A stretch of 63,206 bases of DNA, counting the filler, from Kipferlia bialata (lineage: Eukaryota): the NCBI GenBank assembly GCA_003568945.1. It is 5 parts of 5 records of this genome, joined end to end, with 100 filler letters (N's around TTAATTAATTAA, not from the genome) between each part and the next. Parts side by side here need not be neighbours in the genome. Positions count along the whole stretch, not along the records: positions 35,517 to 52,430 come from BDIP01000562.1; 4 more parts are not named here. The stretch is one strand, 5' to 3'. A model generated the notes under the pieces. It had not been told where the DNA came from, did no database searches, and was given only the letters and a program-made list of their open reading frames with translations. How positions within the stretch are numbered: position 1 is the stretch's first letter; every line of letters begins with the position of its first letter. Both the position numbers and the translations under genes were made by a program. Below, one piece after another: positions 10,305 through 63,121 of the stretch.

Positions 10305-11317
10305 GAGAAGGTTGTCGAGAGGGCCGGCCAGCACCAGATCATCATCTTCGTGCACAGCAGGTACGGGACTCTCTCTCTCTCTCTTTCTTTCTCTATGTCC
10401 ATCTCTCTCTCTCTCCTCTTTGCTAATACCAGGAAGGAGACTGTCCGTTCCGCCAAGCTCATCAGAGACGGCCTCATGGAGCAGGTATCTAACTTACTAA
10501 TAGTGTATTGATATTTGTAAGTGTATGAATATTCCGAATCCAGTCTCCCCTCCCGCTCTCTCACCCCCAGGGCCTCATTGGCAAGCTGGTCCCCGAGAGC
10601 GGTGCCACAGTCAGGGTCCTCCAGGTACATGTACTTCGTACTCATATGTGTATTGTCACTACGTATAGTCTTCAATATACGCCCCCTGATGCCCAGGACT
10701 CTGTGGCCGAGGCCCAGTCCAACGACCTTAAGGACCTCCTCCCACATGGAGTGGCTGTCCACAATGCAGGTGTGTGGTGTATGTATGTATATATATATGG
10801 ATAGCGTGTTCCATTCAGTAGTGCGTTACAGCGAGTTATGTCTAATCCGTAGGAATGACCCGTTCCGACAGACACCTCATCGAGAGGCTCTTTGCCCAGA
10901 GGCACATCCAGGTATAGTCTCTCTCTCTCTCTCTCTCTGTATTATTCAAGTATAATATACTCACCCCAGATCCTTGTGTCCACAGCCACCCTTGCCTGGG
11001 GTGTCAACCTCCCTGCCCACACAGTTATCATCAAGGGCACAGACGTGTACTCATCTGAGATGGGTACGTGGTGATCATATATGATTGAGTCCTATATAAT
11101 AGTAACTATGTATACCTTACCCTCAGGTGGCTGGGTCGACCTTGGTTTCATGGATGTCCTTCAGATGATTGGTCGTGCCGGAAGGCCCCAGTTCGATACT
11201 AGTGGAGAGGGTACGTGTATACTATCTCTCTCTATGTTTTTTGTGTACCCCTTATTCTTTCACCCCCCTGGAATCATCAACACCAAGGAGAGTGCCGTGT
11301 CGTACCTCTGTATATTC

Positions 11318-11350
<33 letters not shown>

Positions 11351-13082
11351 ACACCCTTACCCTCACCCCCTAAGTATCATCATCACCAAGGAGAGTGCCA
11401 TGTCGTATCTCTGTATATTCTCTCTCTCTCTCTCTCTCTCTCTACACCCTTATGTTCACCCCAGGTATCATCATCACCAAGGAGAGTGCCATGTCGTACT
11501 ACCTGTCCATCTTCAACGAGCAGCTGCCAGTGGAGTCCAGGATGATCGGCCGGTACGTATAATTACCATCCAAAGTGAATAATAATAGTGCATTACTTGG
11601 CTTCATTGTTAGTGTGTAAATATCATTCCATCTCTTACCTCCAGTCTGTGCGAGGCCCTCAATGCCGAGATTGTCCTAGGCACTGTGGCAGATGTCAGAG
11701 AGGCAGTCATCTGGCTCAGATACACATACCTCTACTCCAGGTACACAATACACTGTTCTAATCCTATTTCCCCCATGTGGTTCTGATGTCCATATTCGTC
11801 TAGCCCCTCACTGTCAGGATGATGACCGACTCCTCCAACGCTGCCGCAGACAGGTATGTGGCATATGAATATGTCAAGTGAACTGGAAGATAACTTCTAT
11901 AACGTATAATTGTATTCCCTCACCCCCCAGGTACGGCGTATCCCAGTCCATGCGTGTTAAGTCTCTCTCTATACGTAGTCTTGTGTATTATGAAGTACAT
12001 ATTACCTACCCTCAGGTACGGTGTGTCCCAGTCCATGCGTGTTGAGGACAAGGGCCTGGTCAGATACAGAAAGGCACTCATCGTGGCAGCTGCCACAGAG
12101 CTCGCCAAGCAGGGTACGTATGTATGTATATGTATACACACACGAGTGTATATACATATAGTATCATCCTAACCCCCCAGGCCTTGCCTCCTTCGATGTG
12201 GCCACCCAGCGCCTCTCCCCCCTGCCCCTGGGTAGGATTGCAGCCAAGTTCTACATCACCCCACAGACAGCCAACAGATACAGCAGGTACTGTACCATCT
12301 ACCCTCACTGTGTTGTTCTAATACTTGTGCCCATCTCACCCCCCAGGCTTCTCCGCCCTGACCTCGAGTCCCCCACCGAGCTCCTGTCTGTCTTTGCAGC
12401 AGCAGACGAGTTTGCAGCAAGTGAGTGACAGTAACAGTACTCTCTCTATATATATATGTGTGTGTGTAGTAGAATTGTATTTGTATAACAGGGATCTCTC
12501 TCTCTTTCTCTTGGTTACCCCTCACCCCCAGTCAACCTCCGTTCTGAGGAGAAGGGTGAGCTGCGCCGTGTCATTGAGCGTGTCCCCATTCCCATCGCAG
12601 AGGAGGACACATCCCCACACGCAAAGATCATCGCTCTCCTGCAGGTAGATAGCAGACCTCCCTGAATATTGATTTTTGTACTCCATCCCCTCACCCCCAG
12701 GTGTTCATCTCCCGCCTCAACCTTGACGGCTTTGCCATGGTGGCTGACATGGTGTACATTGTGCAGAGCGCACAGAGGTATGTATTGCTTAGATATACAT
12801 GTATGTATGATACGTATCGCGCTTTTTCAATTGATATAGATTATGCAATTGATACAGTGCCATAGTATGATCTAAGTATGAACTAACCCCCCAGACTGAT
12901 GCGTGCTCTGTTTAAGATTGCCCCTCTATTATTCAAGTAACTATGCAATGGATATTGACTATATAATATCATTGTCTTACTCTAGACTGATGCGTGCTCT
13001 GTTTGAGATTGCCCTTGCCAAGAAGATGGCATACCCCACCCTGGCCCTGCTCAAGCTCAGCCAGCAGTGCCAGCACAGGTAT

Positions 13083-13122
<40 letters not shown>

Positions 13123-16100
13123 GTATATTGTTTCTATATATCTGACCATAGGCTCTGGGAGGCCCAGACCCCCCTTAGACAGTTCAAGGACGAGGTGTCC
13201 CCAGACCTGCTCAGGAGGCTGGACTCTAAGAACATCCCCTGGCTCAGGTACAATTATCCCTGGATATATATCTAAATATATATGTTCTCACTATGTGTAG
13301 TTACTATCCTGCTCACCCACTCACTCTCCAGATACCTTGCCCTCTCTGAGGAGCACGTCGGAGACATTGTCAGAGAGCCCCAGCAGGGAGAGTACCTCCA
13401 CAACCTCATCCACTCCGTCCCAAGGTACACATACGCACAAATTCACGTGTTTGTTTTTATGTAATCCCCCTTACCCCCCTAGGTTTGAGCTTGAGGCCTC
13501 TGTGCAGCCTGTGACCTCCTCCCTCCTGGCCGTGACTGTCAACATCGAGCCACTCTTCAGGTATATTAATCAGAGCTTCTCTCTCAATATGTGTGTATGA
13601 ATACATGTGTATGTATCTATACACCCCCCTCACTATTAGGTGGCAGAAGAGGTTCCACGGGTTCATCCTGCCAGTCCACATCATGGCTGTGTCATCCACA
13701 GGACACCAGGTATATATATATATACATATGTATATAAATATATATATATATTCTTTCCTCGTCATACCTCTCTCCTCCCCCCTCACCTGAAGGTCCTGCA
13801 CTCTGAGATGCTGCGTCTCACCCGTGCCTCCTGCAAGGTGGCACACACAGTGGACTTCCTCGTGTCCCTCCAGGTATATATAGCTGCACACATAATATAT
13901 TTATGTATTCATTTATTGTGTTGTATGATGTCCCTCACCCCAGGGCTCCAAGTCCTCTGCCCCCCCTAGCCACGTGTACATCCACGCAGTGGCAGACGGC
14001 TGGCTCGGATCACACACAAAGGTATATTGATATACATTTGCACAATCATATTCATGACGTTTCCAGATTTCTTCTTTTCTCTCTCTCTGTGTCTCTACTC
14101 ACTCCCAGGTGTCTGTGATGCTGGGCGACTCTGTCACCATGCCCTCCAAGTTCCCCATGCCCTCTGCTCTGTCCGACGAGGCACCAGGTATACACCCACA
14201 CTATATCGCACCCCTAGTTATTTGTGGATATGTATAATTATATGGTTATATGTGTATATACCCTGACCCCCAGTGCCTGTGCCTGAGGACCTCAGGGAGG
14301 TCATCCACAAGGACAAGAGGACACACGCCAAGGACAAGATCGATGGTGAGTGTATGTGTACATGTATATAGATATAGATACTATTAGTATGCGTACAAAT
14401 ATGAATATTCTTATATAGTTGGTGTGTGTGTTCTCACCCCAGTGGCTGACGAGGTCATCAACGCCTACCTCCCACCCTCCTCCCTGGTGACTGTCGGCAC
14501 AGAGACTACACTCTCTCCCACAATGTCTGAGGTATAGTAGTGTATACATATTAGTATGAATGTTTGGATGTATTCCTTCTTGCTCATTACCAGGTCTTTG
14601 ATGCCCTCTGCATGGCCCCACATCCATATCGTATATTGTATATATAGTGTAGTGTAGTGGAGTATATTGTAATAATCTCTTACCCCCTAGGCCTTTGATG
14701 CCATCTACATGGCCCCCAACCTTAACTCTCTCTCTCTCTATGAAGTCATAAAGTATCTGTCCATTCCTTCTCCTCATTTCCAATGCCAGGCCTTCGACGC
14801 CATCTACATGGCCCCCAACCTGCCCTCTGTCGGCTACTTTGGCCCAGACAATGCCACCACTGTGCTCAACCTCGCCCTGCTCAGGCACTTCAACAGCCAC
14901 GAGCTCGAGAGGTATGGATACATTGTATATAATATGTATTGTATATATTACGTGTATCTCTACATGGCACTGCTCAGGCACTTCAACAGTCACGAGTTGG
15001 AGAGGTACGCATATAGTAGAGTATATATTGATATTGATCAGTTATACTCTCTTTCCTTCCCCTATTTCCCTCTCTGACGTCCAGGCAGGGTGACCGTTCC
15101 ACCGTCATCTACCTCACTGCATCCCAGGTATGGAGTGTTCACATTCACAAACACTTGCAGTAATTCTTGCATGTTATATATCATGAGTCTTACATAGTAT
15201 GTATATATTATTAATGTATATGTCTCACCCTCAGGATGCTGCCGAGGCCAGGTTCAGGTCCCTGTCCGTGCTGGCAGAGAAGGTATATACTATACATACA
15301 TGTATACATTCTGGTGTTATAAACACAATATAGAAAGTGTATATATGTATATATATATATATATATGTATATATACCCACCCCAGGTTGCCCAGGTGACA
15401 GACAATGCCACCCACTGTGCACCCAATGTGGTGCTGCTCACAGGGGACGTGGTGGCTGACACTAGGTACAGTGTATATATTGATAGATGTATATCCATAG
15501 ATTATTTCATATTTGTGCAGGTAGTATTATTCTGTCTCTTCCTTCCCTCACCCCCTAGGCTCATCTCTGGGTCTGATGTTGTGGCTGTCTGTGGACCCAG
15601 GGAGTACGACGTGCTCTGCAGAAGGTATAGAATACATATATGATCCATGTATTCTATGTCATCTCTTATTGTTGAGTATGTATATTGATAGTATTAATGA
15701 TGACGGCCTCTACATTCATTACCCTCACCCCCAGGTGGCAGTCCTCCAAGGCCGTGCGTAACATTGGCCTCCTCCTGGTCGAGGATGTGCATCTGGTGGG
15801 GGCACCCAACGGAGACGTGCTCGAGACAGCACTCTCTAGGACTAGGTATGTATATATATATATCAGTATGTATATATATAGTGTATATACATACTCCACG
15901 GAGACGTGCTCGAGACAGCCCTGTCTAGGACAAGGTATGGAGTATTACATACATGTCTATCACTTAGAATGAGTTGAATCGTGTATGCTTACCCCCTCAG
16001 GTACCTGTCCCAGCAGCTTGCCGCTGCTGCCAAGGAGAACCCCCAGGCAGACTGTGCAGTGGCCACTATCAGGTATGGTTGTATATATATGTATGTATGT

Positions 16101-18268
16101 ATGTATTTATAGAGAGAGAGAGAGAGAGAGAGTGAGATGAACTCTGGCTTGCTGTACTGTGGCCACTATCAGGTATATAGTATATCAACATGCATATACA
16201 GTATAACATATGCATACTTATATATATAGATGAAAAGGTACTCTGGCTAGACTGTGCTGTGGCCACAATCAGGTATGGATATATATATAAGTAGTGGTAC
16301 GAGAATACCCATGAATTAGTATTCATTTGTATCCCCTCACCCCCAGGATGGTTGTGGCCGGTGTCCCCGTGGCCAATGCCCACGACATTGCCAACTGGCT
16401 AGGTGCGCCTCGCTATCTCACTGTACACTGTCGCTATTTGTATATATTTGTGTATCTCCCTTTCCTTCCTTCCAGCCCCCAGACATCAGGACCAAGTCCA
16501 AGCTATCATATGTATATATGTACCCTTACCCCCCAGGCATCAGGACCAAGTCCAAGCTATCATATGTATATTTGTACCCTTACCCCCTAGGCATCAGGAC
16601 CAAGTCCAAGGACAGGAAGAAGGCTGCCCTCTTTGCATTCCCCCCAGACAAGAGGATGCAGGAGACAATCACAAAGTGAGTGGGTATTCAGAGTCTCTCT
16701 CTCTATGTGTATTATTGTATTGAATAATGGTGTATCTCCTCACTCCAGCCCCATCCTCCCAGGCAGTCTGGCTGCCAGGCTCTCGTCCCTGTCAAGGGCT
16801 GTGTTCAAGGTACAGTGCTGATATGTATATATATTGGTATGGCAATATATTGATATCGTCAGTGTGTTTATAATATGTCTATTATGTCTGTCTCACCCTC
16901 CAGGAGACTGTGATTGTGACCAAGCGCAGCAAGAGGACCAAGGAGACCACCAACCAGAGGGCCCTGGTCCTGGTGCCCAACATGACTCAGGTACTGGATA
17001 TGTATATATATATATATAGTGTATATTCCACTGTCAAGGGTAGTGTGTTAGGACTACTATATACAACTATCTCACCCCCAGGGCCGTTCTCTGATTGAGG
17101 ACATGCTGGAGCTCTCCCTGTCCTACCTGAGTGAGGCAGACAGGGACAGCAGCAAGCTGTACTGCGGATGGGAGGTATTTACATATGATATATATTTTAC
17201 ATATTGTATATATGTGTATTGTATATATATGTATATATACACTCACCCCCAGGATGCCAAGGTTGATGCCGCCCTCTCCGCTGCCAATGTCAGCAGGGAC
17301 CACCCAGAGCTCAAGTACCTCTCCCAGGGTGCTGTCACTATCACACCAGCCACAGGTACACAGAGTTCTCTCTCTCTCTCTCTCTCTCTGTCTATATATT
17401 TATATATATATGTATATATGTCTCTATATTCTCTTCATGTCGTTGACCCCCAGACCTGTCTCTGGTCGAGGTCATTCTGGAGCTCTACTCCCTCGGGGCA
17501 TTCAAGCTGCTCGTGGTTCCCATGGAGGTATGGAGTATCACTTGCACGCATTCTGACACTAACAGAATTTTGTATCTTTCTATCATGTTTGGCAAGCGGT
17601 TCCTGTCTCTCTTGGCAATACAGTTTGAATACCTTTCCTTCCACTTAGCTTGTTACGTCCCATACATTTCTAAACTCCAGGACAAGCGCCTCCTGCCCTC
17701 CCTGGACACTGCCCAGTGCCGGGCAGACATTGTGGTCATCCACGACGCAAGGGTCTTCGATGCCCAGGTGGGTTCAATATGTACCTCACAACCACATATA
17801 TATATTGAGTAGTTATATGTCAATTTCATGTTGTCTTCTGACCCTTTAGGAGCAGAGGTTTGTCCCCCTGCGTGTGGCTGACATCCTGGACATCAGGCGG
17901 AGGACACTCGCCGGTGGAAGGTACATGATATATTAATATATATAGAAGGGCATGCTCTCACTCTTCTACTTGCCCGCTCTCTCTCTCCCTCACCTCCAGG
18001 TTCATCATCCACTGCGACCAGTCCCGTATCGAGTACTACAACAGATTCCTCTTCTCCCCCCTGCCCATCGAGTCCAGCCTCGCATACTCCGTGGTACGGA
18101 CTCTATGTGTCTATAGCCCCGTCAAACGACACATTTCATATATATCCTTTTCTCTCCTTCATTCCTCACCCTTCAGTCTGAGTTCCTGAACGAGGCCATT
18201 GCCAACAAGAGTGTCTCATGCCTCAGCGATGCACTCAACCACCTGTCCTGGACACTGCTCTACCAGAG
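10305..18268 (+). CDS. BRR2: U5 snRNP 200-kDa Ski2-like RNA helicase Brr2, internal fragment (RecA2, WH and Sec63 of the N-cassette, plus most of the C-cassette), about 40 exons
   Basis: Spliced translation: [198 protein letters not shown]. The ERVPIP and FAM-ADMVY motifs favour Brr2 over ASCC3. Confidence 0.93.
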
Positions 18269-40916: not shown

Positions 40917-42149
40917 AGTGGTAATATTTATCCTTTTATACCACTATTGGTAGAATGATATCACTCTAACCCCCAGTCCCCCCTTCTGCTCCATGACCTC
41001 CTTAGGTCCAACAGGACTGTGCTGTACCCACTCATCAGTGCATTCTGCGGGGTGTTCCAGGTACATATAGTACATATATAGTATATTATATTTATAGTAC
41101 ATAGTACAAGTACCTAGGACAGTGCTCTACCCACTCATCAGTGCATTCTGTGGGGTTTTCCAGGTACATATAGGATATATATAGTATGTATAGTATATAT
41201 AGTATGTATAGCATATATAGTATGTATACCATGTCGAGTATACTCTATGTCCTCTACCCACTCATCAGTATCAGTATCAGTATCAGTATCAGTGCGGGGT
41301 GTTCCAGGTACATATAGTACCTATGTATAATATATAGTATAATATATAGTATAATATATAGTATAATATACATACATTGTTCAAGTACATAGGACAATGG
41401 TATATCCACTCAGCAGTGCATTCTGTGGGGTGTTCCAGATATGTACAGTGTATTTAGTAAACATACTCGTACATGACATGTATAGTCAGTCTCTCTAAGC
41501 AGAAGCTTGGCCCCTCCTCCCTCTATTGCCACATTGTATACAACTTTATGTAATCATATGTATTCTGATGCCTAACCTCTAGCTCGAGAATCTCCTAGTA
41601 GATGGCACCTCTCTGGGTCACTTCAGCCCTCTAATTAATATATATATTTCTCTGTTTCTATCTGTATATATGATCCTAACTTCTAGCTTGAATCGCTCCT
41701 TGTGGTCGATGCGTCTCTGGGCCACTTCAGCCCTCTCTCCAGCACCCTTGGTGTCATACTCTCCAGTGTGCATGGCCTCAGGGACATCCCACTGGCTATG
41801 TACAGGGTACTGCTGGATAGGATAGTAGGTATGCGGTATACAGTGTGTTAATATTCAACATAGCCTCAGTGGGAGTTGTAGCTTTACCATCTCTCTGTAT
41901 GTATATATATATTTATGTATTCTCTCTGTAGGTGTACTTGGGTCAGAGGCTGTATATCAGCCGAGGCATAAGTTACATTTCTTTGTATATATATATATGT
42001 ATGTGTATGTCTGTACAACTAACTCTCAGGTGTGCTTGGCTGGGTCAGGGGCTGTATATCAGCCGAGGCTTCCAGGGTCTTTGCATCAGTGCTAGACAGG
42101 ATGCCAGCGGTGGTGGACGTGTTACAGCTAGACAAGAAGGTACTAGGCA

Positions 42150-42184
<35 letters not shown>

Positions 42185-42408
42185 TATATACCATATGTCT
42201 TTGCATCAGTCCTCGATAGGATGCCGGCGGTGATGGATGTACTACAGTTAGATGTTAAGGTACTTATCATCATCATACTGTATATATATATATATATATG
42301 TGTGTATTTAAATCTATGTATATTTTATATATTTTAATATATATATATTTATGTATATATATATATGTATATGTATATATGCCTCTGTATATATTAATAT
42401 ATATATAA

Positions 42409-42441
<33 letters not shown>

Positions 42442-42566
42442 TATGAGAGATACTATATATATATATATGCCTCTGTCCTCGACAGGATGCCTGCGGTGGT
42501 GGATGTATTACAGCTGGATAAGAAGGTATTCACTTCTTGTAATGAATATTTAGTATGTGTGAAATG

Positions 42567-42599
<33 letters not shown>

Positions 42600-44898
42600 A
42601 CCCTTATTGTCAGGAGTCCTCTTCCAAGGCATACAACATCCTGCACATGGTTCAGCTCCTGCTGATATCATACTCGGCAACATACTACGAGCAGCCAGTG
42701 GAGGTAAGTGCACAGAGATGTATACACAAATGGATTTTAGTATTTGCAGTGACTATGCTATGCATACGTTACAGCCATTGGAGGTACGGTATTATGTGAG
42801 GGCATCGTGTAGTACCACTATCGAGTATTATATATGTATGTGTTAGTAGCTGCCTTGTTGAGATACATCCCCTTACCCCCTTACCACACACGCACACATA
42901 CATACATATTTGTATGTGTGTGTATATACTCATAGGAGAATGAAGCTTCATTACCCCTTACACCCAGGGAGAGAACATTGCCACCAAGGAGATGTGTCTG
43001 CAGCAGGGTATCACAGGTAAGATTTCTGTAGTATACGTACCTCCCGTTAATATACTCATCCATTTATTGATGACTTATATCCCTCTACCCTCACCCAGGT
43101 GCCATGCAGCGTGTGGTTGAGCTCTCTCACACACACACTCTCTCCCTCAATCTCTCTCTCGCTCTCACTCTCACTCTCACCCTCACTCTCCCTCTCTCTC
43201 TCTCTCTCTACATATATATATATATTCATATACACATATGTCTTCTAATGACCCAGGTGCCATGCAGCGTGTGGTCGAGTACCTCCATGACCCCCAGTCA
43301 ACACTCAAGGCATACTCTACAAAGGCTAAGGTACACACTAGTATATCTATGATACATATATGATATATATATGATATATGTATATACATTACTGTGTCCT
43401 CAAGGCATACTCCACTAAGGCAAAGGTTAGTCATTGGAGTATCTGTATTTATATAGCACATATGATATTTATATATACACATATATATATATATATACAT
43501 TACTGTGTCCTCAAGGCATACTCCACTAAGGCTAAGGTAGACATTAGTACGGATTAGAACGTATATACAAATAGCATGTATAGTTGTAGTGTGTCTTAGT
43601 ATATCTATGTACTCAAGGCATACTCTACCAAGGCTAAGGTTAGTCATTGCAGAACACTTGGATATAATATGTATTAATATTTATGTTCTCAAGGCATACT
43701 CTACCAAGGCTAAGGTATACAGTAGTATATATATTGTAGTAGTATATTCGAATGTCATGTGTAATAGTATTATGTATTAGTGTATGTGTGTGCTCAAGGC
43801 ATTCTCCACTAAGGTGTACATACACGTTTGGTTAATCATTTGTAATTATATACATTCATTTATACTCAATGTACTCATACATGTACTCTCTCTCTCTCTC
43901 TCTCTCTCTTTCCCTTCATACCTTGCTTACCCTAGGGCGTCTCCCCCCACATTGCTACTGAGCCCCAGTTCTACTTCGGTGCATACCTCTCTCTCTCTCT
44001 CTCTCTTTACCTATCTTACATTCAGGGTGTATCTCCCCACATTGCTACTGAGCCCGAGTTCTACTTCGGTGCATACCTAGTCATGGCCAGTGCCCTGGGA
44101 CCAACCACACATGGCTATGTCAACTTCACACAGGTATATATATATATTTATGAATGTATATATGATGTATGTAGAATACATGGATACGTCAACTTCACTC
44201 AGGTACACAGTGTATACAACAATTTTACACATGCACTATTATATATATATGTATGCTAACCCTCAGCTCTTCCTGCGCTGGTATGCAGGCGGTGCCGTCT
44301 CTCACTATACATATATGTATATATACTAGTATCTCTCTCTATATATATACATGTATAACATATACTCTATATACTCTAACCCCCTAGCTCTTCCTGCGCT
44401 GGTTTGCAGGCACTGACGGTCTCAATGCATCCTGGGATGGACCACTCACAAAGGTATGGGGTTCTCTCCCTCTCACCCTCTCCCTCTCTTAATCAATATG
44501 TATATACATATGTATATATGTACAATGATGTATGTGCTCTTCCTTATCACCCCAGTACATCCTGCTTGTCCTCAATGGCACCCTGAGCAGCAGCACAGGC
44601 ACCATAGTGACACCTGCCATGCCAGTGCCATTCTGCAGGTATACATATATGTGTGTATATATATATATATATGAGTGTATGTATACATATATATACCTAT
44701 ACAGAGGATAGGTGCTATGTCAAATATATGTATATTCATGACACCAGCCATGCCAGTGCCATTCTGCAGGTATAGTATATATATATATATATATATGAAT
44801 GTATATATATAGAAAGGGAAGGAGGGATGTCATCCTTAAGAGGTGTATGTATCTGAGTATTTGTATTTGGCACCAGCCATGCCAGTGCCATTCTGCAG

Positions 44899-44936
<38 letters not shown>

Positions 44937-45210
44937 CCTTTATATCCAGCTGGGTCATAGGCCAGTTGAAGTCTGTGTCTCTCTCCCTCCCTCTATACAC
45001 ATACCTATGTATATGGGTACATGTACTGTATGTATATCTATATCTAACCCCAGCTGGGTCATTGGCCAGTTGAAGTCTGTGCGTGACCCATCCGACATAG
45101 TGTCACTCAGTGATATGGTACCAGAGGTATAGATATGTATGATATAGACAGATAGATGAATGGATATAATGTATATAGGTGCCAGAGGTATGTGTAATAG
45201 GACTAGTTGC

Positions 45211-45241
<31 letters not shown>

Positions 45242-48200
45242 CCCCTCTACACCCTTAATACCCAGGCCGATGAGGATGTGGTCGAGTGGTCATGCTGGAA
45301 CCCCAGTCAGAGGTACGGAGTATTGCTATATACATATATGGGACAACACAATCATTGACGTGCCTCTGGCCTCCAATTTATATATGCTACAATGTTGATA
45401 CATATCATACAACATATAAATATATATATCATAATACCTATATTTCACTTGTATGTATTGATAACCTATCTTACCCCTAGAGGCGTAGATGCCGCCGGTG
45501 TCCCCCTTGCCTACAATGTACTGAGGGCATACCAGAGTGAGCACATCAAGGTATGGACTATATATCGATACAAGTATATATATATATGCAATATATATAT
45601 ACTCTGTCTATATTACATACATCTAACCCCCAGCTGTTCAAGTCGTGCCGTGACAGCAAGGGTCATCTCCCATACTCCCATACATACCTATACATTATAT
45701 ATATACATATACCTAACCACAGCTGTTCAAGTCGTGCCGTGACAGCAAGGGCCTGGCCATGGCAGTCAGGGGCATGAGTGTGTACTTGTCTACAAACAAG
45801 GTAGAGTATAGATATATGGATGTGTAGTATATATATATATATATATATATGATACTGTGTGTGTTGTAAGGGCCTGGCCATGGCAGTGAGGGGCATGAGT
45901 GTATACCTATCAACCAATAAGGTATACACATGGATATATGATTAGTATACATTAGTATATATTAGTAGTCTTAATATACATTTATACCCTGACCTCCAGG
46001 CCAACACTGCCCTCAACCACATCTCTGTATCTACCTCTTATATATATACACACACACACCTATATATATATATGTATATATATGTATCGATCTAGTATGT
46101 ATCTATACATGTACTGACCGCCAGGCCAACACTGCCCTGAACCACATATATCTACCTCATATATGTATATATACACACACACACATATATATCATATACA
46201 TATATATGGTATATATGTATCTGACCACCAGGCCAACACTGCCCTGAACCACATCGACAGTGTCTACCCATATATGTATATACACACACATATATATATC
46301 ATATACATATATATGTATATGTATACTGACCACCAGGCCAACACTGCCCTCAACCACATCGACAGTGTCCGCACAGCATACTTCAGGTATGTATATATAT
46401 ATATACTATATTGTATAGATATATACAAATTTATTGTATTCATTTGGATATGTCAGCTGTACTGGTGTTGACAGTGTCCGCACAGCATACTTCAGGTACA
46501 CAATCCATTGGGTCATCCTATAACACTATGTATCCTTCTCTCTCTCGCTCGCTCTCTATTTCTCCAGGTAACACCAGTGAATATATAACAATACACTTCG
46601 GGCAACATGTGAATACCTTAGTATTGTATATGTACATGTATATATTCCTTACCTCTAGGACCACTGTCCCCTATGGCGCAGGCATTGTCTGTGGCAGACT
46701 GGCCAAGGAGCAGGCATACTTAAAGTACGTTATATATATGTAGTATAGTATATATATAGTGACATAGTTTAGTATATATATAGTGACATGAGTGATACTA
46801 TACAGTGTATATTATGAATGTATGTGAAATACTATAGTCTTGTGTGGCAGACTGGCCAAGGAGCAGGCATACCTCAAGTGAGTAATAATAGATATATATG
46901 CATATACTATTATATACTACTATACACTATTATATATACATATACTTGTATATATATATATATATATATATACTGTGTGTCTGTGGCAGACTGGCCAAGG
47001 AGCAGGCATACCTCAAGTACGCATCAATGCATATATATGCATATACTAATATATACTATTATACACTATTATATATACATATACTTATATATATATATAT
47101 ATGTCTGTGGCAGACTGGCCAAGGAGCAGGCATACTTGAAGTACGCATCAATGCATATATATGCATATACTACTATATACTACTATACACTATTATATAT
47201 ACATATGCTTGTATATATATGTCTGTGGCAGACTGGCCAAGGAGCAGGTATACTTGAAGTACGCAGTATTCCACATATTGTATACATATACACTACTATA
47301 TAGACAGATACTTGTATATATATCTATGTATACATATATATATATTTGTATCATCATATTCTTGTATGGCAGACTGGCCAAGGAGCAGGCATACCTAAAG
47401 TGAGTAATAATAGATATATGTATACACATATATAGACATATACTTATATATGTATGATTATATACTATAGATACCGTATGGCTGTGGCAGACTGGCCAAG
47501 GAGCAGGCATACCTCAAGTGAGTAATCATATAGATATGTACATATTTATACACCTATTCACTACTATATAGACGTATACTTGCATATCTATCCATACATA
47601 GATATATATATATATGTGTGTGTGTGTGTGGCAGACTGGCCAAGGAGCAGACATACCTCAAGTACGTCTCTATCGCTCTCTCTCTGTGTGTCTCTCACCC
47701 CTTAGAAAGGAGGTCTTCATCAAGGAGACCTGTGACATCATCCAGTCATCCAGCACATCTACTTCTAACCATATAATCATATATATATGTATATGTATAT
47801 ATATACATATCTAACCGTAGGAAACAAGTATTCATCAAGGAGACCTGTGACATCATCCAGTCATCCAGCACATCGGTCAGAGAGTTTGTGGCTGGCATGA
47901 TCGAGGCCTGTGACAAGTGAGTGGTACATATAGTGTATACTAGAGTATAGTGATAGTGTGGTATATATAGCTATAGAGAGGGGACAGAGAGAGAGAGAGT
48001 TTGTGGCTGGCATGATCGAGGCCTGTGACAAGTCCGTTAGTTCTCTCTCTCTCACTCTTAGTCACGTCTCTCCCTCCTCTCTCTCTCTCTCCCTCTACAC
48101 CCTTTATTCACCCCTAGGTCCCAGGACGAGGCAATCAAGACCTTCCTCTCCCTGAAGACACTGCACAAGCCCCTGGACTCAGTTTTTGTACAGTTCGGTG

Positions 48201-48678
48201 GACTCCCGGCAGGTATAGATTAATTTTTTCTACGCGATTACATTTTTACGCGAGTACATGTTCGGTGGGCTCCCGGCAGGTATAGGTTCTAAGTCCTACA
48301 CGATTGTACTTCTTACGCGATTACTCACTCTATAGGCACTGAAGAGCGTGCCGGTCTCCCCCTACCCCCCTTTGTGCACGGGTGGTCTGTGGGCAATGAC
48401 CCATGGCTGCCCAAGTGGGGGCAGTTCCTACAACTTACTAGGTACATATATATAGTGTACAGTTATAGTGACTGTCCATGTATGACATCTTGAGTGTATT
48501 AGTATATTCCATAATTGTCTAGGAGTCAAAATGCATGTATACTCTGCTCATCATCTCCCCCCATAGTATTATGTATAGTGATATAGTAATATATAGTAGT
48601 AGTAATAGTAATGTATAGTAGTGTGTCTCTCTCACACCAGGACCCACTCTGCGGACCAGACATCTTTCTCTCTCTCTA

Positions 48679-48715
<37 letters not shown>

Positions 48716-51700
48716 ATATTTCCATATTTATTATTCCATATCTAATGCCAGGACCCACTCCGCCGACCAGAACGTGCTGATCAAGCAGTGGCTAGGTACG
48801 TAGAGATGTAGATAGACAACTATGTATAGATACAGTATTTATATACATTTGACTGTATATATGTGTGCAATACTAACCTCAGGACTGTGCAAGACATAGT
48901 ATGTATAGGATACCTTAGTATATATATATGTATAGATATAACCCCAAGGGCTGTTCAAGAAAGAGGCACCCACTCTACCAGTATCCGAATCTTCTCAAAT
49001 GTATTAGTATTATATATATTGTATAATTATGGTGTATGTATATATCTCACCCCAAGGTCTGTTCAAGAAGAAGGAGGCCCCCATCCTGAGGATGTTATTA
49101 CTATATATTGAATGCTATATAGTATATATGAACTATATATATAGTATATATACACTGTATGTATATAGTGTATATATATATTACTGACCCTAGGTCTGTT
49201 CAAGAAGAAGGAGGCCTGCCATCCTCAGGATGTTATTACTATATATATATATATATATATATATGTCTTCTTATGTATCTAACTACACCTTATATAGTGT
49301 ATATATACGTATATATATACATTAGTGTCTCACCCAGGCCTGTTCAAGAAGAAGGAGGCCCCCATCCTCAGGATGTTCATAGCAACACTGGCCTTCTACC
49401 ACTACTACGACGCACCAGGTACAATCCTTATATCTACGCGATGATCACTTCATACACGGTACTCTTTAACACTACGACGCACCAGGTACCACCCGTATAT
49501 CTACGCGATGGTATATTTCTTACACGATTCCATTTTGTGTTCATAATATTCAACATGATACCAGGCTGCTTTGGACCCAACCTCCCCTCTAGGGCCAAGC
49601 TAGTGGCTGCCAGTAGAGCACTGGACAACAGCTACATGAATGGCATAGAGCATGCATACATAGTGATGCTCAGTGACCCCAGGTACTTCTAGAGATAGTG
49701 TACACATACACACACACCCTTACCTCTATATATATGCGGTATATATATATACATGAATGGCATAGAGCATGCATACATTGTGAGGCTGAGTGACCCCAGG
49801 TGGGAGACATTAGGCTCTGATATACGAATGACCTTACCTATACTTGATAAAGCTATATTACTAGATATGATTGTATCTAACTCTCCAGACAGGCACCCGT
49901 GTGGAACACGTCCGAGCCAGACTTCAAGTACCTCAGACGGAACCACAACGTGATGCAGGTATATATGTATCTCTCTCTCTCTCTCTCTCTTCATCCAATA
50001 TCTCTGAGAACTGAAAACACATTGTTTATGTCTATACCCTTACTCACTCACTCTCTACACCCCTAGTATCTAGGAACTGTACACTGTGCCTGGTCACGTT
50101 CTCTCTCCCTCTCTCTCTCTTTTTCTCTCTCTCTCTCTCTCTCTCTCTACACCCTTAATATCCAGGAACTGTACACTGTGCCTGGCCAGGTGGTGGATGC
50201 AGACGATGATGAGCAGAGGAGCCACAGGTAATATATATATATATATATATATACTACAATAGATATATAGATATAGGTATGTAGATATATAGATATAGGT
50301 ATATATATATATATGTAGTCTCTACACTATATATATTATGTGGATGCAGACGATGATGAGCAGAGGAGCCACAGGTGAGTACATGTATTATTATTTATAC
50401 TANNNNNNNNNNNAGCAGAGGAGCCACAGGTGAGTACATGTATTATTATTTATACTACAATAGATATATATATAAAGGTATATACATATATATATGTAGT
50501 CCCTACACTATATATATTATGTGGATGCGGACGATGATGAGCAGAGGAGCCACAGGTGTGTATGTACATAGTATGAATGGTATATATATATGTATATTGA
50601 GAGAGAGAGAGGGAGAGAGAGACGATGATGAGCAGAGGAGCCACAGGTATCTATGCACCGAGTCCAGACATCATATATAGTGATTGCTTAATATGTATTA
50701 TGTGTATCTCTCTCCCCTATCCCTGCTCACCCCAGGTTCTTCCGTCAGCACAAGAACGCTCTCTCTCTCTCTCTCTCATTATATATGTATATGAATATTC
50801 AGACACCTCCCTATCCATCCTCACCCCAGGTTCTTCCGCACAGAATCATTCTCTATCTGTTTATTACTAAATGCTCATTACTGTTTAACTATTTCTCTTA
50901 CCCCAGGTTCTTCCGTCAGGCCATCGCCCTGTGCATCATATACGGACTGGGGGTCAACAGGTATATGCTGTAGTTTACACATGCATAGACATATATATAT
51001 ATAGTGTATATCTCTGGAGGGTATCTCTTCAATTTACTATTGCCCTGTGCATCATATACGGACTGGGGGTCAACAGGTATATATGCACTATATACTATAT
51101 GGTGATATGTACTGAGAGTATATACATACTGATACTTGTTCATATTATTATTGCCCTGTGCATCATATACGGACTGGGGGTGAACAGGTATAAGATAAGA
51201 TGTAGTAAGTATACTATACGAAGTAACTATACTATTGCCCTGTGCATCATATACGGACTGGGGGTCAACAGGTATAGGCTGTATTCATAGTCTCTTGTAT
51301 TGTTATGTATATATATGTGTGTGTATGTATATATATATATATCTTACCCCCTAGGAGGGGGGCCCACTGGTCCAGGACCATGATTCAATAACTAAGATGT
51401 CATCAGTATACATTATTATATATATACTTGTATATACTACTATACTACTATCATTCTATACCACTAGGAGTGGTTTGGTTGTTATATATATATGTAGATC
51501 TATATATGACACTAGGAGCGGGGCCCACTGGTCCAGGACCATGATTGAGAAGTACATCGACCTCAAGGGGTGCTTCCTCATCGGTATGGATAAGTCTATC
51601 AATATATATATGTATGTATGTGTATATATATACATATATAGTACATCGACCTCAAGGGTGCTTCCTCATCGGTAAGGACATCAATCTCTCTCTCTCTCTC

Positions 51701-52113
51701 AAACTGTCCCACTGTTTGTCTCACTCATTTCATTGTTATTGTGTGAATCTCTCTATGTATACCTATCTTACCCCTAGGCCATGCGTGGAACAGTCCAGTT
51801 GGTAACGGCATCCACATCGACTGTGGAATGAAGGTACAGTATACTGAGTTGTACCTCTATACCCTTTCCAATACTCTAGGTGGACTTCTATTGCTGTGTG
51901 TTGTTACTATAGTATTCTTCATTCTCACTCTCAGGATGCCAAGTTCTCCTCCACCGTGACAGCTGAGGCAATGAGTGTCAGATCACTGGGGCCATTGGCC
52001 ACAAGGTGAGTTTGCATGAATATGGTATGTATCTATACTACACTTTATGTATCTATGTGTTTGTACTGAGGCCATGAGTGTCAGAGAACTGGTGCCACTG
52101 GCTACTAGGTGAG

Positions 52114-52530: not shown

Positions 52531-55500
52531 CAGACACCACACAGTGGGTGGGGCTGATGCTGCCTGGCACGATAGTGATAGTGCCTGCAGAGGGGATGAG
52601 AGCTGGTGTGCCAGTCACACCTACACTAACAGTGTAGTCTCCAGCAAGAGAGAGTGCCGCCGTGGCAATGTATTTCTCGGTAGTTGAGTCAAACACAGCT
52701 GATCTAGGTACCACAGTGGTATCCAGAGTGAATGTGACTGTGACATTGGCTGTGTCTATGGCAATGGCCACCCCAGACTCGTCCTTGAGTGCCACTGACA
52801 CCTCACACTCCTCCCCAGCCACCACGTCTTCTGATGGGAGGGTCACCACGGACTGGGAGCCATCTGGTACCAGAGGGGCAGATATGGTGACAGTCCCAGC
52901 ACTTGTAATGAATGAAGATATCGAGTCGACACCTATACTCACAGTGTGGTCCCCCTCCACGCTGTGTACAGCACTGGTACTAGTGACAATGTACAGTCCC
53001 ACCGATGAGACAGAGGCAGTGGCATCAATGGTCACTGCACTACCGCCCTGGGTGAATGTGGCAGTCACACCAGTGTCAGCGGAGGTGGGGTTGGAGTACT
53101 GATCCCTGAGCATGACAGAGAGTGTGAACCCGAATCCTGAGGGCACAGCAGAGTCAGGGAGGGAGACAGTACTGGCAGACCCATCAGGGGCAGATCCAGT
53201 GACAACAAAAGTGGTGGTTCCAACTGATGCAGAGTCATAGGATACACCAATGGATACGGTGCCTGAGGAGGTGAACGTCCCTGTGAATGTGTATGTACTG
53301 GCAGCTGCCCCCAGTGCTCCACTCATGGGTGCCTGTGTCGCACCCTGGGTCATGACACCTGTGAAGCTGGGGAGGGAGGACCCATCTACAGGGATGAGGT
53401 TGCCGTATGAGTCACTGACAGTCACATCCACAGAGACGGACTCCCCTGCAGAGACTGAGGCAGGGCTGGGACTGCCAACCCTTGATGCTGCAGCACTGAT
53501 GGCGGCTGGTACAATGGTAACGGTACCAGCATTGGTGATGAAGGAGGGGGTGTCCGTGTATGCGATACTGACAGTGTACACACCGGCCTTAGTGGCAGTG
53601 CATGAGAGGGTGTACACAGGCCCGGCAGCCAGGTATGTCGCAGTGAAGGGCAGGCTGGTCTCCCCCATCGTGAGTGTACCAGTCACAGTGGTCTCAGTAG
53701 GAATGTCAACACCTGACTCGTCCTTCAGCTGCACATAGACATCGAATGCCGCCCCTGCCACCTGGGGGGTGTTGATGGTGACAGCTGATGCACTTGGATC
53801 TGGAGTGGCAGGGGCACTGACAGTGACAGAGGCGGTCTTGAAGAGGGGGACCCCAGTATACCCAACGGAGATTGTGTGAACCCCTACCACCTCATCCACA
53901 GCTGCAGTGCTGCTGACTGTGTATGTTGCAGTGCCTGAGTCATATGTAGCCACGATGGGTACTGAAGTCTGCCCCACCGTGAATGTGACAGTGACTGTCG
54001 TCTCAGTGGCCAGCACGTTGAAGCTGTTATCTCTGAGGACCACACTGACTGTGAACTGAGTACCTGTCTCGACGGTACTGGCAGAGAGCAGCACATCAGA
54101 GAAGTCTGCATAGGCTGCGAGGGGGAGTACAGTGACAGTGCCTGCCTCACTGATGAAATCAGGCACCCCAGTGTAGCCTATCCCCACTGTGTATGTGCCT
54201 GGGACACTGTGTACAGAGGATGTGCTGGTGACAGTGTACACCTTGGTGTTGGTGTCATACACGGCCTCGATGGAGACAGGCGTGGACCCCTCCTGAGTGA
54301 ATGTGAAGGTGACAGTGGTGGACCAGGGGATGGCTGTGAAGGAGGCGTCCATGAGCACAACAGTGGCTGTGAACACACTGCCATAGGATATGTCGGAGGA
54401 GGGCAGGAAGAGGTTGAACCCGGTCATCGTGGCGTCTGGGACAGCCACCTCCCCTGTGACTGTCACAGACCCAGCATCTGTCATGAAGGAGGGACTGTCT
54501 GTGATGCCTATACTGAGGGTGTGGGTCCCTGCCACATGGTCTATAGCATCGGTGCTGGTGACAGTGTACAGAGCAGTCCCTGCGTCATATGCAGCCACAA
54601 TGGGTACAACCTCAGACCCCACGGTGAAGGAGACAGTGAGTGCCACCCCGGTGGACACTGTGTTACTGTACTCATCCTTGAGTAACACCTGCACTGTGAA
54701 CTCTTCACCTGCCTGTACAGAGGAAGAGGGCACAGTAACAGTGGAGGTGGAGGGGTCTGGGGTGGAGGGGTCTACAGTGAAGGCAAGAGGGAATGTGCTC
54801 TGGCCGTACCCACACCCCTCTGTTGACTGCGCATAGAGGGTGTGACTCTCTGTGGCCACAGTAGGCAGAGTGACACTTCCGCCATACTTGCCATCTGCAG
54901 AGTGGGAGAGAGACACACTCCCAGACATGTCGGCGGAGTGACTGACACTGAGGGAGAGACAGGTGATGGGGGAGGAGGACCCATCAAGGACAGTGACCTC
55001 CAGTGCTGTGGATGTCCCTACTACACCCTGTGTAGTGCTAGTGATGGTACAGCTAGGCACCCTGGGCAGCACAGACACACTGTACTGGAAGGTGGTGAGG
55101 GTGTATCCAGACCCAGGGTATGACCCCCCCTGGACCCTTCCGTATATGGTAAGGGTACCCACGGCATCAGTGGGTACAGGAAGGGACCCTGTATACACAC
55201 CATCCCCCGAGTGCCCTAGATATACTGAGGCAGAGAGGTCGGAGTAGACACTGAGCTCCACTGACTCAGCAGTCAGTCCCACCCCTCCCGCATCCTGTAC
55301 AGTGAGAGTGAGAGATTCACTCTCCCCGGCAGTGACACTCGACTCAGCAAGAGTAACGCTGGGGTAGGGGTTGCTGGTGGACACGTATAGGACCACCACT
55401 GAACCCACAGAGGTCTGATCCATGTACACAACCTCGACAGTGCTGGACCCGGCCACAGCAGAGGTGCCAGTGTATGTATAGAGCCCTGAGTCGGTGTTGT

Positions 55501-56010
55501 ATGCACCGGCCATTGCCACGTCTAACTGGCCAGAGAGAGTGAGAGTGGCAGTGATAACGGGAGCGAGGTTGGTAGTGACTGCATTGCCGAATGCGTCCAT
55601 GGGGTCTATGTACACTGCCACCTCCTCCCCCACTGATAAGGGTCCAGTGGGTCCAGAGACACTAGACTTGGCGGCACTGAAGGCAGAGGGGACCACTGAC
55701 ATGGTACCGGCATCAGCTATGAAGGCGGAGGTGCCCGTGTACCCCACACTCACCACCCAGTCCCCTGCTCTGGTAGGAGCAGTGGCAGCGATGAGGTATG
55801 TCTGGAAGCTGGACTCATAGGTGGCCTCATAGGAGTGGGACAGGGTGCCCATACTGAGGGTGGCAGTGACTGTCGTCTGGTCCGATACAACACTACCCCC
55901 ACTGTCCCTGAGCACAACACTCATGTCCAGGGTGGTACCAGCTACAACAGTGCTGTCAAAGGAGACAGTGGACTCAGATGGGTCGGGGGAGACAGACTTG
56001 GGTGCATAGC
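52531..56010 (-). CDS. giant internal exon encoding at least 11 tandem ~100-aa Ig-like (filamin/invasin-type) repeats; probable surface or adhesion protein
   Basis: Open for at least 3.48 kb from the acceptor ctcactcccag (CAG at 56013-56011) to the contig end. Repeat motif PD.S.S.V....V.AG..F.V.V.L.D..GN...Y.....Y.V......G.Y.V.V; Ser/Thr/Val-rich beta-strand pattern. Confidence 0.85.
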
Positions 56011-56113
56011 CTGGGAGTGAGGAGTGTGCCTATGTCTTTCGGTCACTATACACTATGAAGAGAGAACGAGAGAGGGGGGGGGGGGGGGGGGGGGGGGGCG
56101 TAAATAGGATAGG

Positions 56114-57452: not shown

Positions 57453-57501
<49 letters not shown>

Positions 57502-58805: not shown

Positions 58806-58842
<37 letters not shown>

Positions 58843-60642: not shown

Positions 60643-61395
60643 CTAGTCCATAGCAACATCGGCCTCCTCGTCCCTCTTCTCGGCAACGGCAGAGTCGGAG
60701 AACATGTCTAGGGTGAGACAGAGAGAGACAGAGAGAGACAGAGAGAGAGAGAGAGAGTGTGTGTGTGTACTCACATACATTTATATATATATAGAGAGAG
60801 AGAGTACTCACCCTTTCCAGCTATGGGGGCAGCGTCCAGGTTGGTACGGCCATGGGCAACACCTAAGAGTGAGTGTAATCGACACAGTTATACTATATAT
60901 ATATCATATTCTCTTATACACAAGAATATGATATATATATATATATATATGTAGAGAGAGAGAGAGAGAGAGAGATGTCTGTACCTGGGGCATTGGGCAG
61001 AGAGCGTAACCGCTCAGTCACCATACGGACCTTGTCCTCAATCTGGTGGTTAAAAGGGGTATAGGGGAAGAGAGACAGAAGGAGAGAGAGAGATATATAA
61101 GGACCTTGTCCTCAATCTGAAGGTGAATAGGGGGGTAAGGGGGATGGGGAGGGGGGAGAAAGAAAGAGAGAGAGAGAGCATAGATATACCTGTCTATCTG
61201 TGTTCATGTTCTGGCAGTTACTGGGTAGCACCGAAAGGGTGTAGTCGGGGCCAAAGAACTCATAGAACCCATTGTAGGGGATCTCCTCGGAGAGCTGGCA
61301 GTGAGTGCGATACAGATAATACACATATATAATTACGTTACCAACATATAGTAGTCAAAGATAGTAGTCAAACTGTGGGAGAGGGTGTGAGCGAC

Positions 61396-61432
<37 letters not shown>

Positions 61433-63121
61433 CTGGGTGCCAGCAAGGAGGGCGGTCTCGTAGGTCCAGCACTTGGACACATTCCTGGGGTGTAAGATGC
61501 GTGCAGATACGTATACATCTAAAGAGAAAGATATATATAGAGAGAGTAACACGACAAAGACTTGCTGATGACAATAGTGTGGCGTGAGTACAATGCTATT
61601 TACAACTGTCATCACTAGTTATTGGTAGTATATACATATATATACCTTGGAGTGTACCCTCCCCCTCCCAGGAACAGGGTGGGCAGGCCATAGGAGGCAA
61701 CGGTCTAGAGGGTGAGACGGGATAAGGGTATGGTGATTATATGGGTAAAAGAGGCGAGGGGGGTGGAGAGAGGGAGACAGATAGAGAGAGAGAAAGAGGG
61801 AGAGAGAGGGTGGGGAGGCCATAGGAGGCAACGGTCTAGAGGGTGAGAGGTATATACATAGAGAGAGAGAGGGGGGGGGGGGTATGTGGGTGAAACTGAC
61901 ATGGCGAAAAAGGGGAGGAACACTGGCATATATACATGTCAGTAACAAATAGATGTATCTGTAACAAACCTGCACACAGTCCCCGTGCCCGTTGAGGGTC
62001 AGGTTGAAGGAGCCAAGTCTGGGGTGAGAGGCATCAGTATATATAGAGGTATATGAATGATATGTAACATGGAAGAGGACAACAACAGAACATGTATGAA
62101 TATATCGAGTTACCATTCTCCACCTCAATCTCTGTGCAATTATACTATCACGGGTGACGTTATGATACGTACATAGTATTGAAATAACGAATTACGATAT
62201 AACATGCCCCGTACCTGTCATTGGCCAGGGAGTATATCACTGACGGCACATATATGCATATATATATATATTTACATATATATATATAGTATATCTGAGA
62301 GTGCCTCGTACCTGTCATTGGCCAGAGAGTCAGCACCACACTGCATCACAATGGCAGAGGGTCTGGGGGTGAGACTATAGTAAATGTGTATATGTAGAGA
62401 GAGAGAGAGAGAGAGAGAACAGCATCACAATGGCAGAGGGCCTGGGGGTGAGACATATAGTAAATGTGTAGAGAGAGAGAGAGAGAGAGTCAGCACCACA
62501 CTGCATCACAATGGCAGAGGGCCTGGGGGTGAGGAATTCATAAAGGGAGCAGAGAGAGAGAGAGAGAACATAACCACACTGCATCACAATGGCAGAGGGT
62601 CTGGGGGTGAGATACACGCTAAGGGTGTAGAGAGAGAGAGAGAGAGACGACAGCACCGCACTGCATCACAATGGCAGAGGGTCTGGGAGTGAGATTCACA
62701 TTAAGGGTGTAGAGAGAGAGAGAGAGAGGACATCACTACGCTGCATCACAAATGCATCACAAATGCATGAGGTATATATTGACTTGTATTATATTTTACC
62801 TGTAGTGGTCTATGCATGACTGATGGAAGACTGTCCATCTATATATATATATATATATATATACATCCATATATATCGTACCTGTAGTGGTCTATGCATG
62901 ACTGGAGGATGGGCTTGAACATACCAACAAATGTATTCTACATAAATATATACAAATATATAAATACGTACTACCCATGTATTAACGTATGCAAGACTAT
63001 CTATCTATATAATACCTGTAGTGGTCTATGCATGACTGGAGGATGGGCTTGAACATCCTGCCGTATGTCTCGTCATCCACTCCATCGTCTACATCCACAT
63101 TGACGGAGTAGCCATAGCCAC
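60643..63121 (-). CDS. RPD3: class I histone deacetylase (Rpd3/HDAC1-3 type), 3' half, 9 exons in the window
   Basis: GGYGYSVNVDVDDGVDDETYGRMFKPILQSCIDHYR|PSAIVMQCGADSLANDR|LGSFNLTLNGHGDCVQ|TVASYGLPTLFLGGGGYTPR|NVSKCWTYETALLAGTQ|LSEEIPYNGFYEFFGPDYTLSVLPSNCQNMNTDRQ|IEDKVRMVTERLRSLPNAPG..DVAMD*. TAG at 60645-60643. Confidence 0.95.

What the first reader, a model, noticed from the sequence alone, without database searches (positions are those of the whole stretch)
46659..47667. Eight-copy array cycles through four Leu codons and two different valid donor families
In [11 protein letters not shown] the final Leu is TTA, CTC, CTC, TTG, TTG, CTA, CTC, CTC across the copies, with only two clear internal nonsynonymous hits (GTA and ACA for GCA). 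Donors alternate between GTACG(T/C) and GTGAGTAAT lineages, both matching donor types used elsewhere in the window. Inference: each lineage has served as the working 5' splice site, so intron 5' ends are swapped via the array.
Basis: partly seen in the sequence, partly recalled or inferred. Interest (0 to 1): 0.7.

Follow-up and report, generated by a model that had tools for sequence, protein, structure and literature searches.

The report
Introns archiving other alleles' exon ends
In this free-living protist about half of the introns examined carry extra copies of the neighbouring exon end plus its splice site, which the mRNA skips where tested yet which differ from the working copy almost only at silent codon positions, so they are likely recently displaced pieces of other individuals' alleles and would be a record of hidden genetic exchange in a very diverse population.

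Summary
The eight copies, the Leu codons and the two donor types are exactly as described. The array is one case of a window-wide feature in a gene identical to a deposited Kipferlia bialata protein. I found 89 'echoes' in 44 of 94 introns of three genes. Polarity is strict: exon end plus donor downstream, acceptor plus exon start upstream (56 right, 0 wrong). A spliced RNA contig uses the first donor and last acceptor in the ten introns laid. Yet echoes differ from the working copy like coding sequence: 92 of 406 four-fold sites against 27 of 1662 zero-fold sites, GT kept in 50 of 52, AG in 35 of 37, while the intron behind them is mostly unrelated. Duplication and decay in one clonal line gives a ratio of 0.5 or more; observed 0.07. 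Best reading (0.55): recombination with very divergent alleles installs a new exon end and splice site and pushes the old one into the intron. No second allele or strain was available to test this. Not found in ten literature searches.

The parts
35588..52005 (+). Host gene, 46 modelled exons; equals deposited hypothetical protein KIPB_003078 (source's name, Kipferlia bialata); 68 echoes in 32 of 45 introns
   Evidence: no Pfam hit
46659..46724 (+). Working exon 34 (copy 1, Leu TTA), followed by donor GTACGT at 46725
46843..46883 (+). Donor echo 2: exon end (CTC) + GTGAGT
46978..47022 (+). Donor echo 3: exon end (CTC) + GTACGC
47102..47146 (+). Donor echo 4: exon end (TTG) + GTACGC
47220..47264 (+). 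Donor echo 5: exon end (TTG, Ala>Val) + GTACGC
47367..47405 (+). Donor echo 6: exon end (CTA) + GTGAGT
47479..47523 (+). Donor echo 7: exon end (CTC) + GTGAGT
47623..47667 (+). Donor echo 8: exon end (CTC, Ala>Thr) + GTACGT
47662..47705 (+). Innermost GT..AG piece, 44 nt, between last donor echo and the acceptor echo; not used in the deposited protein
47691..47759 (+). Acceptor echo: branch-like motif + TAG + 54 nt copy of the next exon's start (3 synonymous, 2 non-synonymous differences)
47821..47916 (+). Working exon 35 (last acceptor, AG at 47819-47820)
42077..42525 (+). Best example of codon-aware divergence: working exon end and two donor echoes with 9 synonymous differences each (4 and 0 non-synonymous)
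37423..37463 (+). Donor echo with 7 synonymous and 0 non-synonymous differences in 41 nt; the RNA contig carries the working exon 37261-37340 with no other letters
10305..18268 (+). Ski2-like helicase gene (Brr2/ASCC3 family), 43 exons curated by hand, 12 echoes in 8 of 42 introns
60812..63121 (-). Class I histone deacetylase gene, 8 exons curated by hand, 9 echoes in 4 of 7 introns

Best explanation
The array is one of many silent intronic copies of an exon end with its splice site, which differ from the working copy mainly at synonymous positions and are likely former working ends of other alleles, left behind when recombination with a divergent homologue installed a new exon end and splice site. 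Proposed steps. (1, inferred) Alleles in the population differ at about a quarter of silent sites and have unalignable introns, so only exons can pair. (2, inferred) A break in an exon is repaired by strand invasion of a homologue, copying through the splice site some 40-120 nt into the foreign intron, then rejoined by microhomology to the old exon end; the old end and its splice site are now inside the intron. The mirror event gives acceptor echoes. (3, inferred) Out-of-register crossing-over and short conversions between working copies and echoes of different alleles stack units into arrays, shuffle codons and donors, and return echoes to the working position. (4, shown in ten introns, consistent in 45) Splicing takes the first donor and last acceptor, that is the shortest exon, so single-site duplications are harmless. 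(5, inferred) Duplications that would carry both sites are mostly purged, which gives the strict polarity. Echoes are short-lived: their decay (at most 1.6%) is under a tenth of the silent divergence.
For: Codon positions of differences 31/11/138; four-fold 92 of 406, zero-fold 27 of 1662; 116 synonymous and 33 non-synonymous unique changes against an expected synonymous share of 0.38 for duplicate-and-decay, P 3e-23, still 3e-15 with transition bias 8; ratio CI 0.04-0.11 by array bootstrap. Echo splice sites score like working ones (acceptor 12.4 vs 12.0 bits; branch-like motif 30 of 37 vs 76 of 94; donor 6.4 vs 7.3) but differ in sequence; flank unrelated in 65 of 88, including 7 echoes of 25 nt or more with identical exon part. 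Amino-acid differences are conservative (mean BLOSUM 0.27 vs -0.62, P 0.004, 26 codons), 4 codons show 3-4 synonymous states, one array fails the four-gamete test. Only 2 of 52 donor spacers hold a good acceptor. RNA contig: first donor, last acceptor, 8 of 8 listed piece coordinates fit the model. PMC8516963: metamonads lack NHEJ, fornicates lost Rad51A and have Dmc1 paralogs (passages); its supplementary table lists Dmc1, Pol theta, Spo11, Hap2 and Msh2 for K. bialata. Dmc1 stabilises mismatched joints (PMC6719624 abstract). In a hyperdiverse fungus crossovers fall in exons (PMC4209137 abstract).
Against: No second allele or strain was seen: one protein hit for the exon query, none among shorter proteins, only a 27% paralog among representatives, nothing in two metagenome scans. 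The implied silent diversity (0.23 raw, 0.27 corrected) exceeds the 0.20 reported as a record (PMC4576712 abstract). No gradient of decay with rank in the array (pN 0.019, 0.017, 0.022, 0.016), so a simple conveyor order is not seen. The helicase gene gives a weaker ratio (16 synonymous, 13 non-synonymous; about 0.25). All six four-gamete failures come from one array. In the 8-copy array only one codon varies while about 6 other silent sites are invariant, which independent alleles would not easily give. The simulation is a single lineage without second-order selection. Repair junctions cannot be read without the template.
Confidence: 0.55

Rival explanations
1. Echoes are themselves under purifying selection because they are used, as rare coding alternatives in RNA or as spare templates that are often recombined into the working position.
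For: Explains codon bias, intact splice sites and the missing rank gradient directly. Contigs drop rare variants, so rare use is not excluded.
Against: The RNA contig carries working copies only, with no other letters, and no echo-to-working DNA joint was listed. Read-through hits a stop 17 nt into the first spacer. Some echoes carry a 1-nt deletion, a 6-nt deletion or a microsatellite expansion. Heritable swapping homogenises as fast as it filters, so it too would need very high diversity.
Confidence: 0.17
2. The divergent working sequences come from a few parental genomes (a hybrid or allopolyploid past) or paralogs, not from a standing diverse population; the capture mechanism is the same.
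For: Of varying codons in arrays 28 have two synonymous states and only 4 have more; one array looks like two haplotypes recombined.
Against: Three or four states at four codons need more than two sources; divergence per echo ranges from zero (15 of 75) to 0.4 or more (10 of 75); the only paralog found is 27% identical.
Confidence: 0.13
3. One clonal lineage, in which working exons change much faster than introns through error-prone RNA-templated repair, while echo splice sites are kept as decoys or splicing aids.
For: Exon part and donor are decoupled at the junction, as a spliced template would cause; PMC8516963 names transcript RNA or cDNA as possible repair templates and lists Pol theta.
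Against: It predicts near-identical intron flanks behind working copy and echo; 65 of 88 are unrelated, and branch and donor motifs differ by point changes yet stay valid. Needs two special assumptions.
Confidence: 0.07
4. Ordinary tandem duplication of the gene's own DNA by slippage or sister exchange; selection keeps only copies that span one splice site; they then decay neutrally.
For: Explains polarity, unit length near 106 nt, related spacers of copies 2-7 and the 23 of 88 echoes with a flank like the working one. Probably accounts for some units.
Against: Predicts a non-synonymous to synonymous ratio of 0.5 or more; observed 0.07, CI 0.04-0.11.
Confidence: 0.05
5. Assembly artefact: divergent haplotypes or repeats concatenated.
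For: The DNA run laid may be the source of the window, so it is not independent; the window is several pieces joined by N linkers.
Against: DNA contigs span working exon, spacer and echo with no other letters at even depth near 400 (records 1, 4, 6); strict polarity relative to splice sites, 56 to 0.
Confidence: 0.02

Closest known systems
Human F7 intron 7 minisatellite (37-bp VNTR spanning the exon-intron boundary; PMC1557585, abstract seen)
   Same: Tandem copies of an exon end plus donor; only the most upstream donor is used; downstream donors are intact but silent.
   Different: F7 pseudo-sites are identical in sequence and at one locus. Here units have unrelated spacers and different valid donors, occur in 44 of 94 introns, have a mirror acceptor class with last-acceptor use, and differ with a codon signature.
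Intron gain by tandem genomic duplication and by double-strand-break repair (PMC3443670, passages seen)
   Same: Short local duplication around splice-like sites; direct repeats at intron ends. Two places in the window look like completed cases (36390-36461, 37587-37712).
   Different: Echoes duplicate one existing splice site and create no new intron; the copies are not identical to the source but look like other working versions.
Tandem exon duplication with mutually exclusive splicing (recalled, e.g. Dscam; no call)
   Same: Adjacent copies diverged at silent sites with conserved amino acids.
   Different: Echoes lack the second splice site (2 of 52 donor spacers hold a good acceptor) and are absent from the RNA contig.
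Hyperdiverse species with exon-restricted crossing-over, Schizophyllum commune (PMC4576712, PMC4209137, abstracts seen)
   Same: Silent diversity near 0.2 and recombination confined to conserved exons are what the best explanation assumes.
   Different: The abstracts report no intronic echoes; here the diversity is inferred from one genome, not measured between individuals.
One-sided invasion / synthesis-dependent strand annealing (one passage in PMC9299229; details recalled)
   Same: One end repaired by homology, which would copy foreign flanking sequence.
   Different: Described for gene targeting in plants; its action here is inferred, no junction or template was observed.

Membership tests
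Splice-boundary VNTR (F7 type) | Tandem units whose first copy spans the exon-intron boundary | tested here: met
Splice-boundary VNTR (F7 type) | Only the most upstream donor is used | tested here: met
   RNA contig for introns 1-10 of the same gene; for the 8-copy array only indirect
Splice-boundary VNTR (F7 type) | Units and donors near-identical, derived from the locus itself | tested here: not met
   7 of 45 donor echoes share the working 6-mer; flank unrelated in 65 of 88
Splice-boundary VNTR (F7 type) | Copy number varies between individuals | not testable with these tools
   no second strain found
Mutually exclusive duplicated exons | Each copy is a full exon with acceptor and donor | tested here: not met
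   2 of 52 donor spacers with a good acceptor; polarity 56 to 0
Mutually exclusive duplicated exons | Copies appear in mRNA isoforms | tested here: inconclusive
   absent from the one spliced contig, but contigs drop rare forms
Intron gain by tandem duplication | Exonic duplication creates a new intron between the repeats | tested here: not met
   echoes lie inside existing introns; two possible completed cases noted separately
Nested or recursive introns (stwintron type) | Donors and acceptors pair up so that inner removal restores an outer intron | tested here: not met
   8 donors against 2 acceptors in this intron; many introns have one class only; splicing intermediates not tested
Introner or other transposon insertion | Dispersed copies of one element in unrelated genes | tested here: not met
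   each echo matches only its own flanking exon; 0 of 912 foreign matches
Hyperdiverse recombining species | Silent diversity above about 0.1 measured between individuals | not testable with these tools
   only inferred: 0.227 (0.167-0.286) between working copy and echo
Hyperdiverse recombining species | Meiosis and cell-fusion genes present | not tested
   listed for K. bialata in the supplementary table of PMC8516963 (Spo11, Dmc1, Hap2); not checked in sequence here

The most novel reading that the evidence does not exclude
Kipferlia routinely rewrites its splice sites with DNA from other individuals through Dmc1-only repair, so one genome stores a fresh sample of its species' alleles in tens of thousands of introns. 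That archive would show silent diversity of about 0.25, above the reported eukaryotic record, would be genomic evidence of ongoing sex in a free-living metamonad, and is tolerated because this short-intron protist defines exons, not introns.
Probability: 0.42. Interest if true: 0.92.

Novelty: new variant of a known kind. Interest (0 to 1): 0.8.

Why it matters
Untranslated intronic DNA with a protein-coding selection signature (ratio 0.07) is very unexpected. If the echoes are captured alleles, population diversity and recombination can be read from one genome. [quoted passage not shown] The arrays are also a natural experiment on splice-site choice: an inner GT..AG piece of normal intron length (median 84.5 nt vs 89 nt for echo-free introns) with intact signals is skipped in favour of the shortest exon, whereas intron definition is reported to predominate in most protists (PMC2397502 abstract). 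It offers a route for rapid intron-end turnover, and perhaps intron gain, in a lineage with about 125,000 introns whose parasitic relatives have under ten (PMC5874029). Echoes also mislead gene finders.

Tried and rejected
No whole genome was held, so all counts are from this window. No listed holder is on record as RNA. Searches for a second allele, strain or relative were blank; the helicase exon query found nothing; blanks are weak evidence. My Viterbi parser called 19 false mini-exons in the host gene; I removed 3 and shortened 1 in the helicase and removed 4 in the deacetylase by hand, and left three other genes out of the codon counts. For those a model-free test gave 65 of 138 mismatch spacings in multiples of three (P 5e-4; 54 of 106 in the host gene). 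Six decayed or gapped echoes were missed by the ungapped detector, which biases against old echoes. Function of the host protein: no Pfam family for it or its paralog. Earlier scan notes: none. Rejected: alternative donor use giving protein (stop at 46741), nested splicing (unbalanced sites), conveyor-belt age order (no rank gradient), assembly artefact. PMC4888836 gave only a reference-list hit.

Full report
Observation. Copy 1 is the end of a real exon (46659-46724); copies 2-8 are 33-39 nt of that exon end with a donor, each preceded by 79-118 nt of AT-rich spacer. The same intron holds a mirror element, an acceptor plus 54 nt of the next exon's start, upstream of the working acceptor.

Host gene and organism. 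Joining exons by first donor and last acceptor gives 46 exons and 1128 codons without a stop. One exon found a single deposited protein, labelled by its source as hypothetical KIPB_003078 of Kipferlia bialata, identical to my model at 1099 of 1099 aligned residues. That annotation is a prediction, not independent proof. It has no Pfam family; its only relative among 1.84 billion representatives is a 27% paralog from the same species. The window also holds a Brr2/ASCC3-type helicase and a class I deacetylase, whose exons I curated by hand from a parse.

What is spliced. On 35520-38260 a 6648-nt contig from a run guessed to be RNA joins first donors to last acceptors (five GT..AG joints listed), shows no other letters, and all 8 listed pieces fall at the coordinates my model predicts, which fixes the summed exon lengths for introns 1-10. 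DNA contigs span exon, spacer and echo with no other letters at depth near 400, so echoes are in the DNA; that run may be the window's own source. There, any later donor would bring in a stop at 46741.

The feature is general. A detector blind to codons and splice sites found 89 echoes (52 donor, 37 acceptor) in 44 of 94 introns of the three genes. Polarity is strict: 28 introns hold the upstream exon's end, 28 the downstream exon's start, none the reverse, and 0 of 912 foreign exon ends matched. Units are about 106 nt; the piece from last donor to first acceptor has the length of an ordinary intron (84.5 vs 89 nt).

The surprise. Echoes differ from the working copy like coding sequence: 31, 11 and 138 differences at codon positions 1, 2 and 3; 92 of 406 four-fold sites and 27 of 1662 zero-fold sites (four distal nt trimmed). 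Counting each change once per array gives 116 synonymous and 33 non-synonymous. A copy that is duplicated and left to decay while the working copy stays under selection predicts a synonymous share of 0.38 (ratio 0.5); P 3e-23, and 3e-15 with strong transition bias. Bootstrap by array: ratio 0.04-0.11. A single-lineage simulation with conversion either way and re-duplication gave 0.52-0.64 in six settings. The helicase alone is weaker (16 against 13). Genes left out of the codon count show the same three-base spacing of mismatches (65 of 138). Splice signals behave alike: G and T kept in 51 of 52 each, A and G in 36 of 37 each, branch-like motif in 30 of 37 against 76 of 94 working sites, yet identity to the working intron falls to background from about +8, and the flank is unrelated in 65 of 88.

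What that forces. Both versions must have been working for most of their divergence, and the echo can have been silent only briefly, or must still be selected. Echoes do decay: 3 of 83 have 10% or more zero-fold change, and some have deletions or repeat expansions. Amino-acid differences are more conservative than random (P 0.004), as expected if part is allelic polymorphism. Copies are mosaics: in this array copies 2, 3 and 4 share the distal spacer but not the donor, copies 3 and 4 share the donor but not the Leu codon, and copy 1's spacer is unrelated to all.

Mechanism. I favour capture from divergent alleles (0.55). Where only exons align, a break in an exon can invade a homologue, copy through the splice site into its intron and be closed by microhomology onto the old end; unequal exchange then builds and shuffles arrays; shortest-exon splicing hides the result; selection removes units with both sites. 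The repair steps are inferred. The gene set fits: no NHEJ in metamonads, Rad51A lost and Dmc1 duplicated in fornicates (PMC8516963 passages), with Dmc1, Pol theta, Spo11 and Hap2 listed for K. bialata (its supplementary table; one supplementary file could not be read). Dmc1 tolerates mismatches (PMC6719624 abstract), and crossovers favour exons in a hyperdiverse fungus (PMC4209137 abstract).

Against it. No second allele or strain turned up. The implied diversity, 0.23 raw and 0.27 corrected, is above the 0.20 reported for Schizophyllum (PMC4576712 abstract). Decay does not rise with distance from the working copy. In this array only one codon varies. Four-gamete failures come from one array, with one more across this junction. 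Rivals are selection on echoes through rare use (0.17), a hybrid past with few donors (0.13), RNA-templated exon hypermutation (0.07), plain duplication (0.05) and artefact (0.02).

Known or new. The closest case is the human F7 boundary minisatellite with silent identical donors (PMC1557585 abstract). Ten searches of the held library gave no description of such echoes; I read only listings for most hits. The genome paper reports 124,912 introns and holds no word starting with 'duplicat', 'heterozyg' or 'ploid'; I did not open its supplements, and subscription journals are not covered. The structure is a variant of a known kind; its spread, the acceptor mirror and the codon signature are not in any kind I could find.

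Verdict. Observation confirmed; interpretation partly supported; interest 0.8.

Noticed in passing
window 37587-37712: A repeat of about 27 nt on both sides of a 65-nt intron, both copies kept in the RNA contig, giving a doubled HTPLGSTMS peptide: possibly an echo that became exon, or a new intron.
   Followed up: partly
window 36390-36461: The 62-nt intron 3 has TACTTCAG followed by GT at both ends, as expected for intron gain by duplication of an AGGT site or for a donor echo turned acceptor.
   Followed up: partly
window 18868-19553, 20446-21374, 28220-28626, 43399-43818, 62419-62682: Other large echo arrays of four to eight copies, of donor or acceptor type; those at 18868-28626 lie in a gene left out of the codon counts.
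   Followed up: partly
window 52540-56030, minus strand: Intronless open frame of 3492 nt rich in Thr, Ser and Val repeats, probably a surface protein; not identified.
   Followed up: no
window 29059-32330: Exons of about 0.5, 1.5 and 1.1 kb in a genome whose median exon here is 77 nt; they matter for the shortest-exon model.
   Followed up: no
window 10138, 18390, 35417, 52431: N runs with a 12-nt all-frame stop linker: the window is several pieces joined, so gene neighbourhoods across them are uncertain.
   Followed up: no
window 56655-60163, minus strand: Intron-rich gene whose parse resembles a cap methyltransferase (recalled likeness, not searched).
   Followed up: no
P0002: 4125-residue paralog KIPB_000973, 27% identical over the host protein's second half, no Pfam family: an unnamed giant protein family seen only in this species in these searches.
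   Followed up: partly
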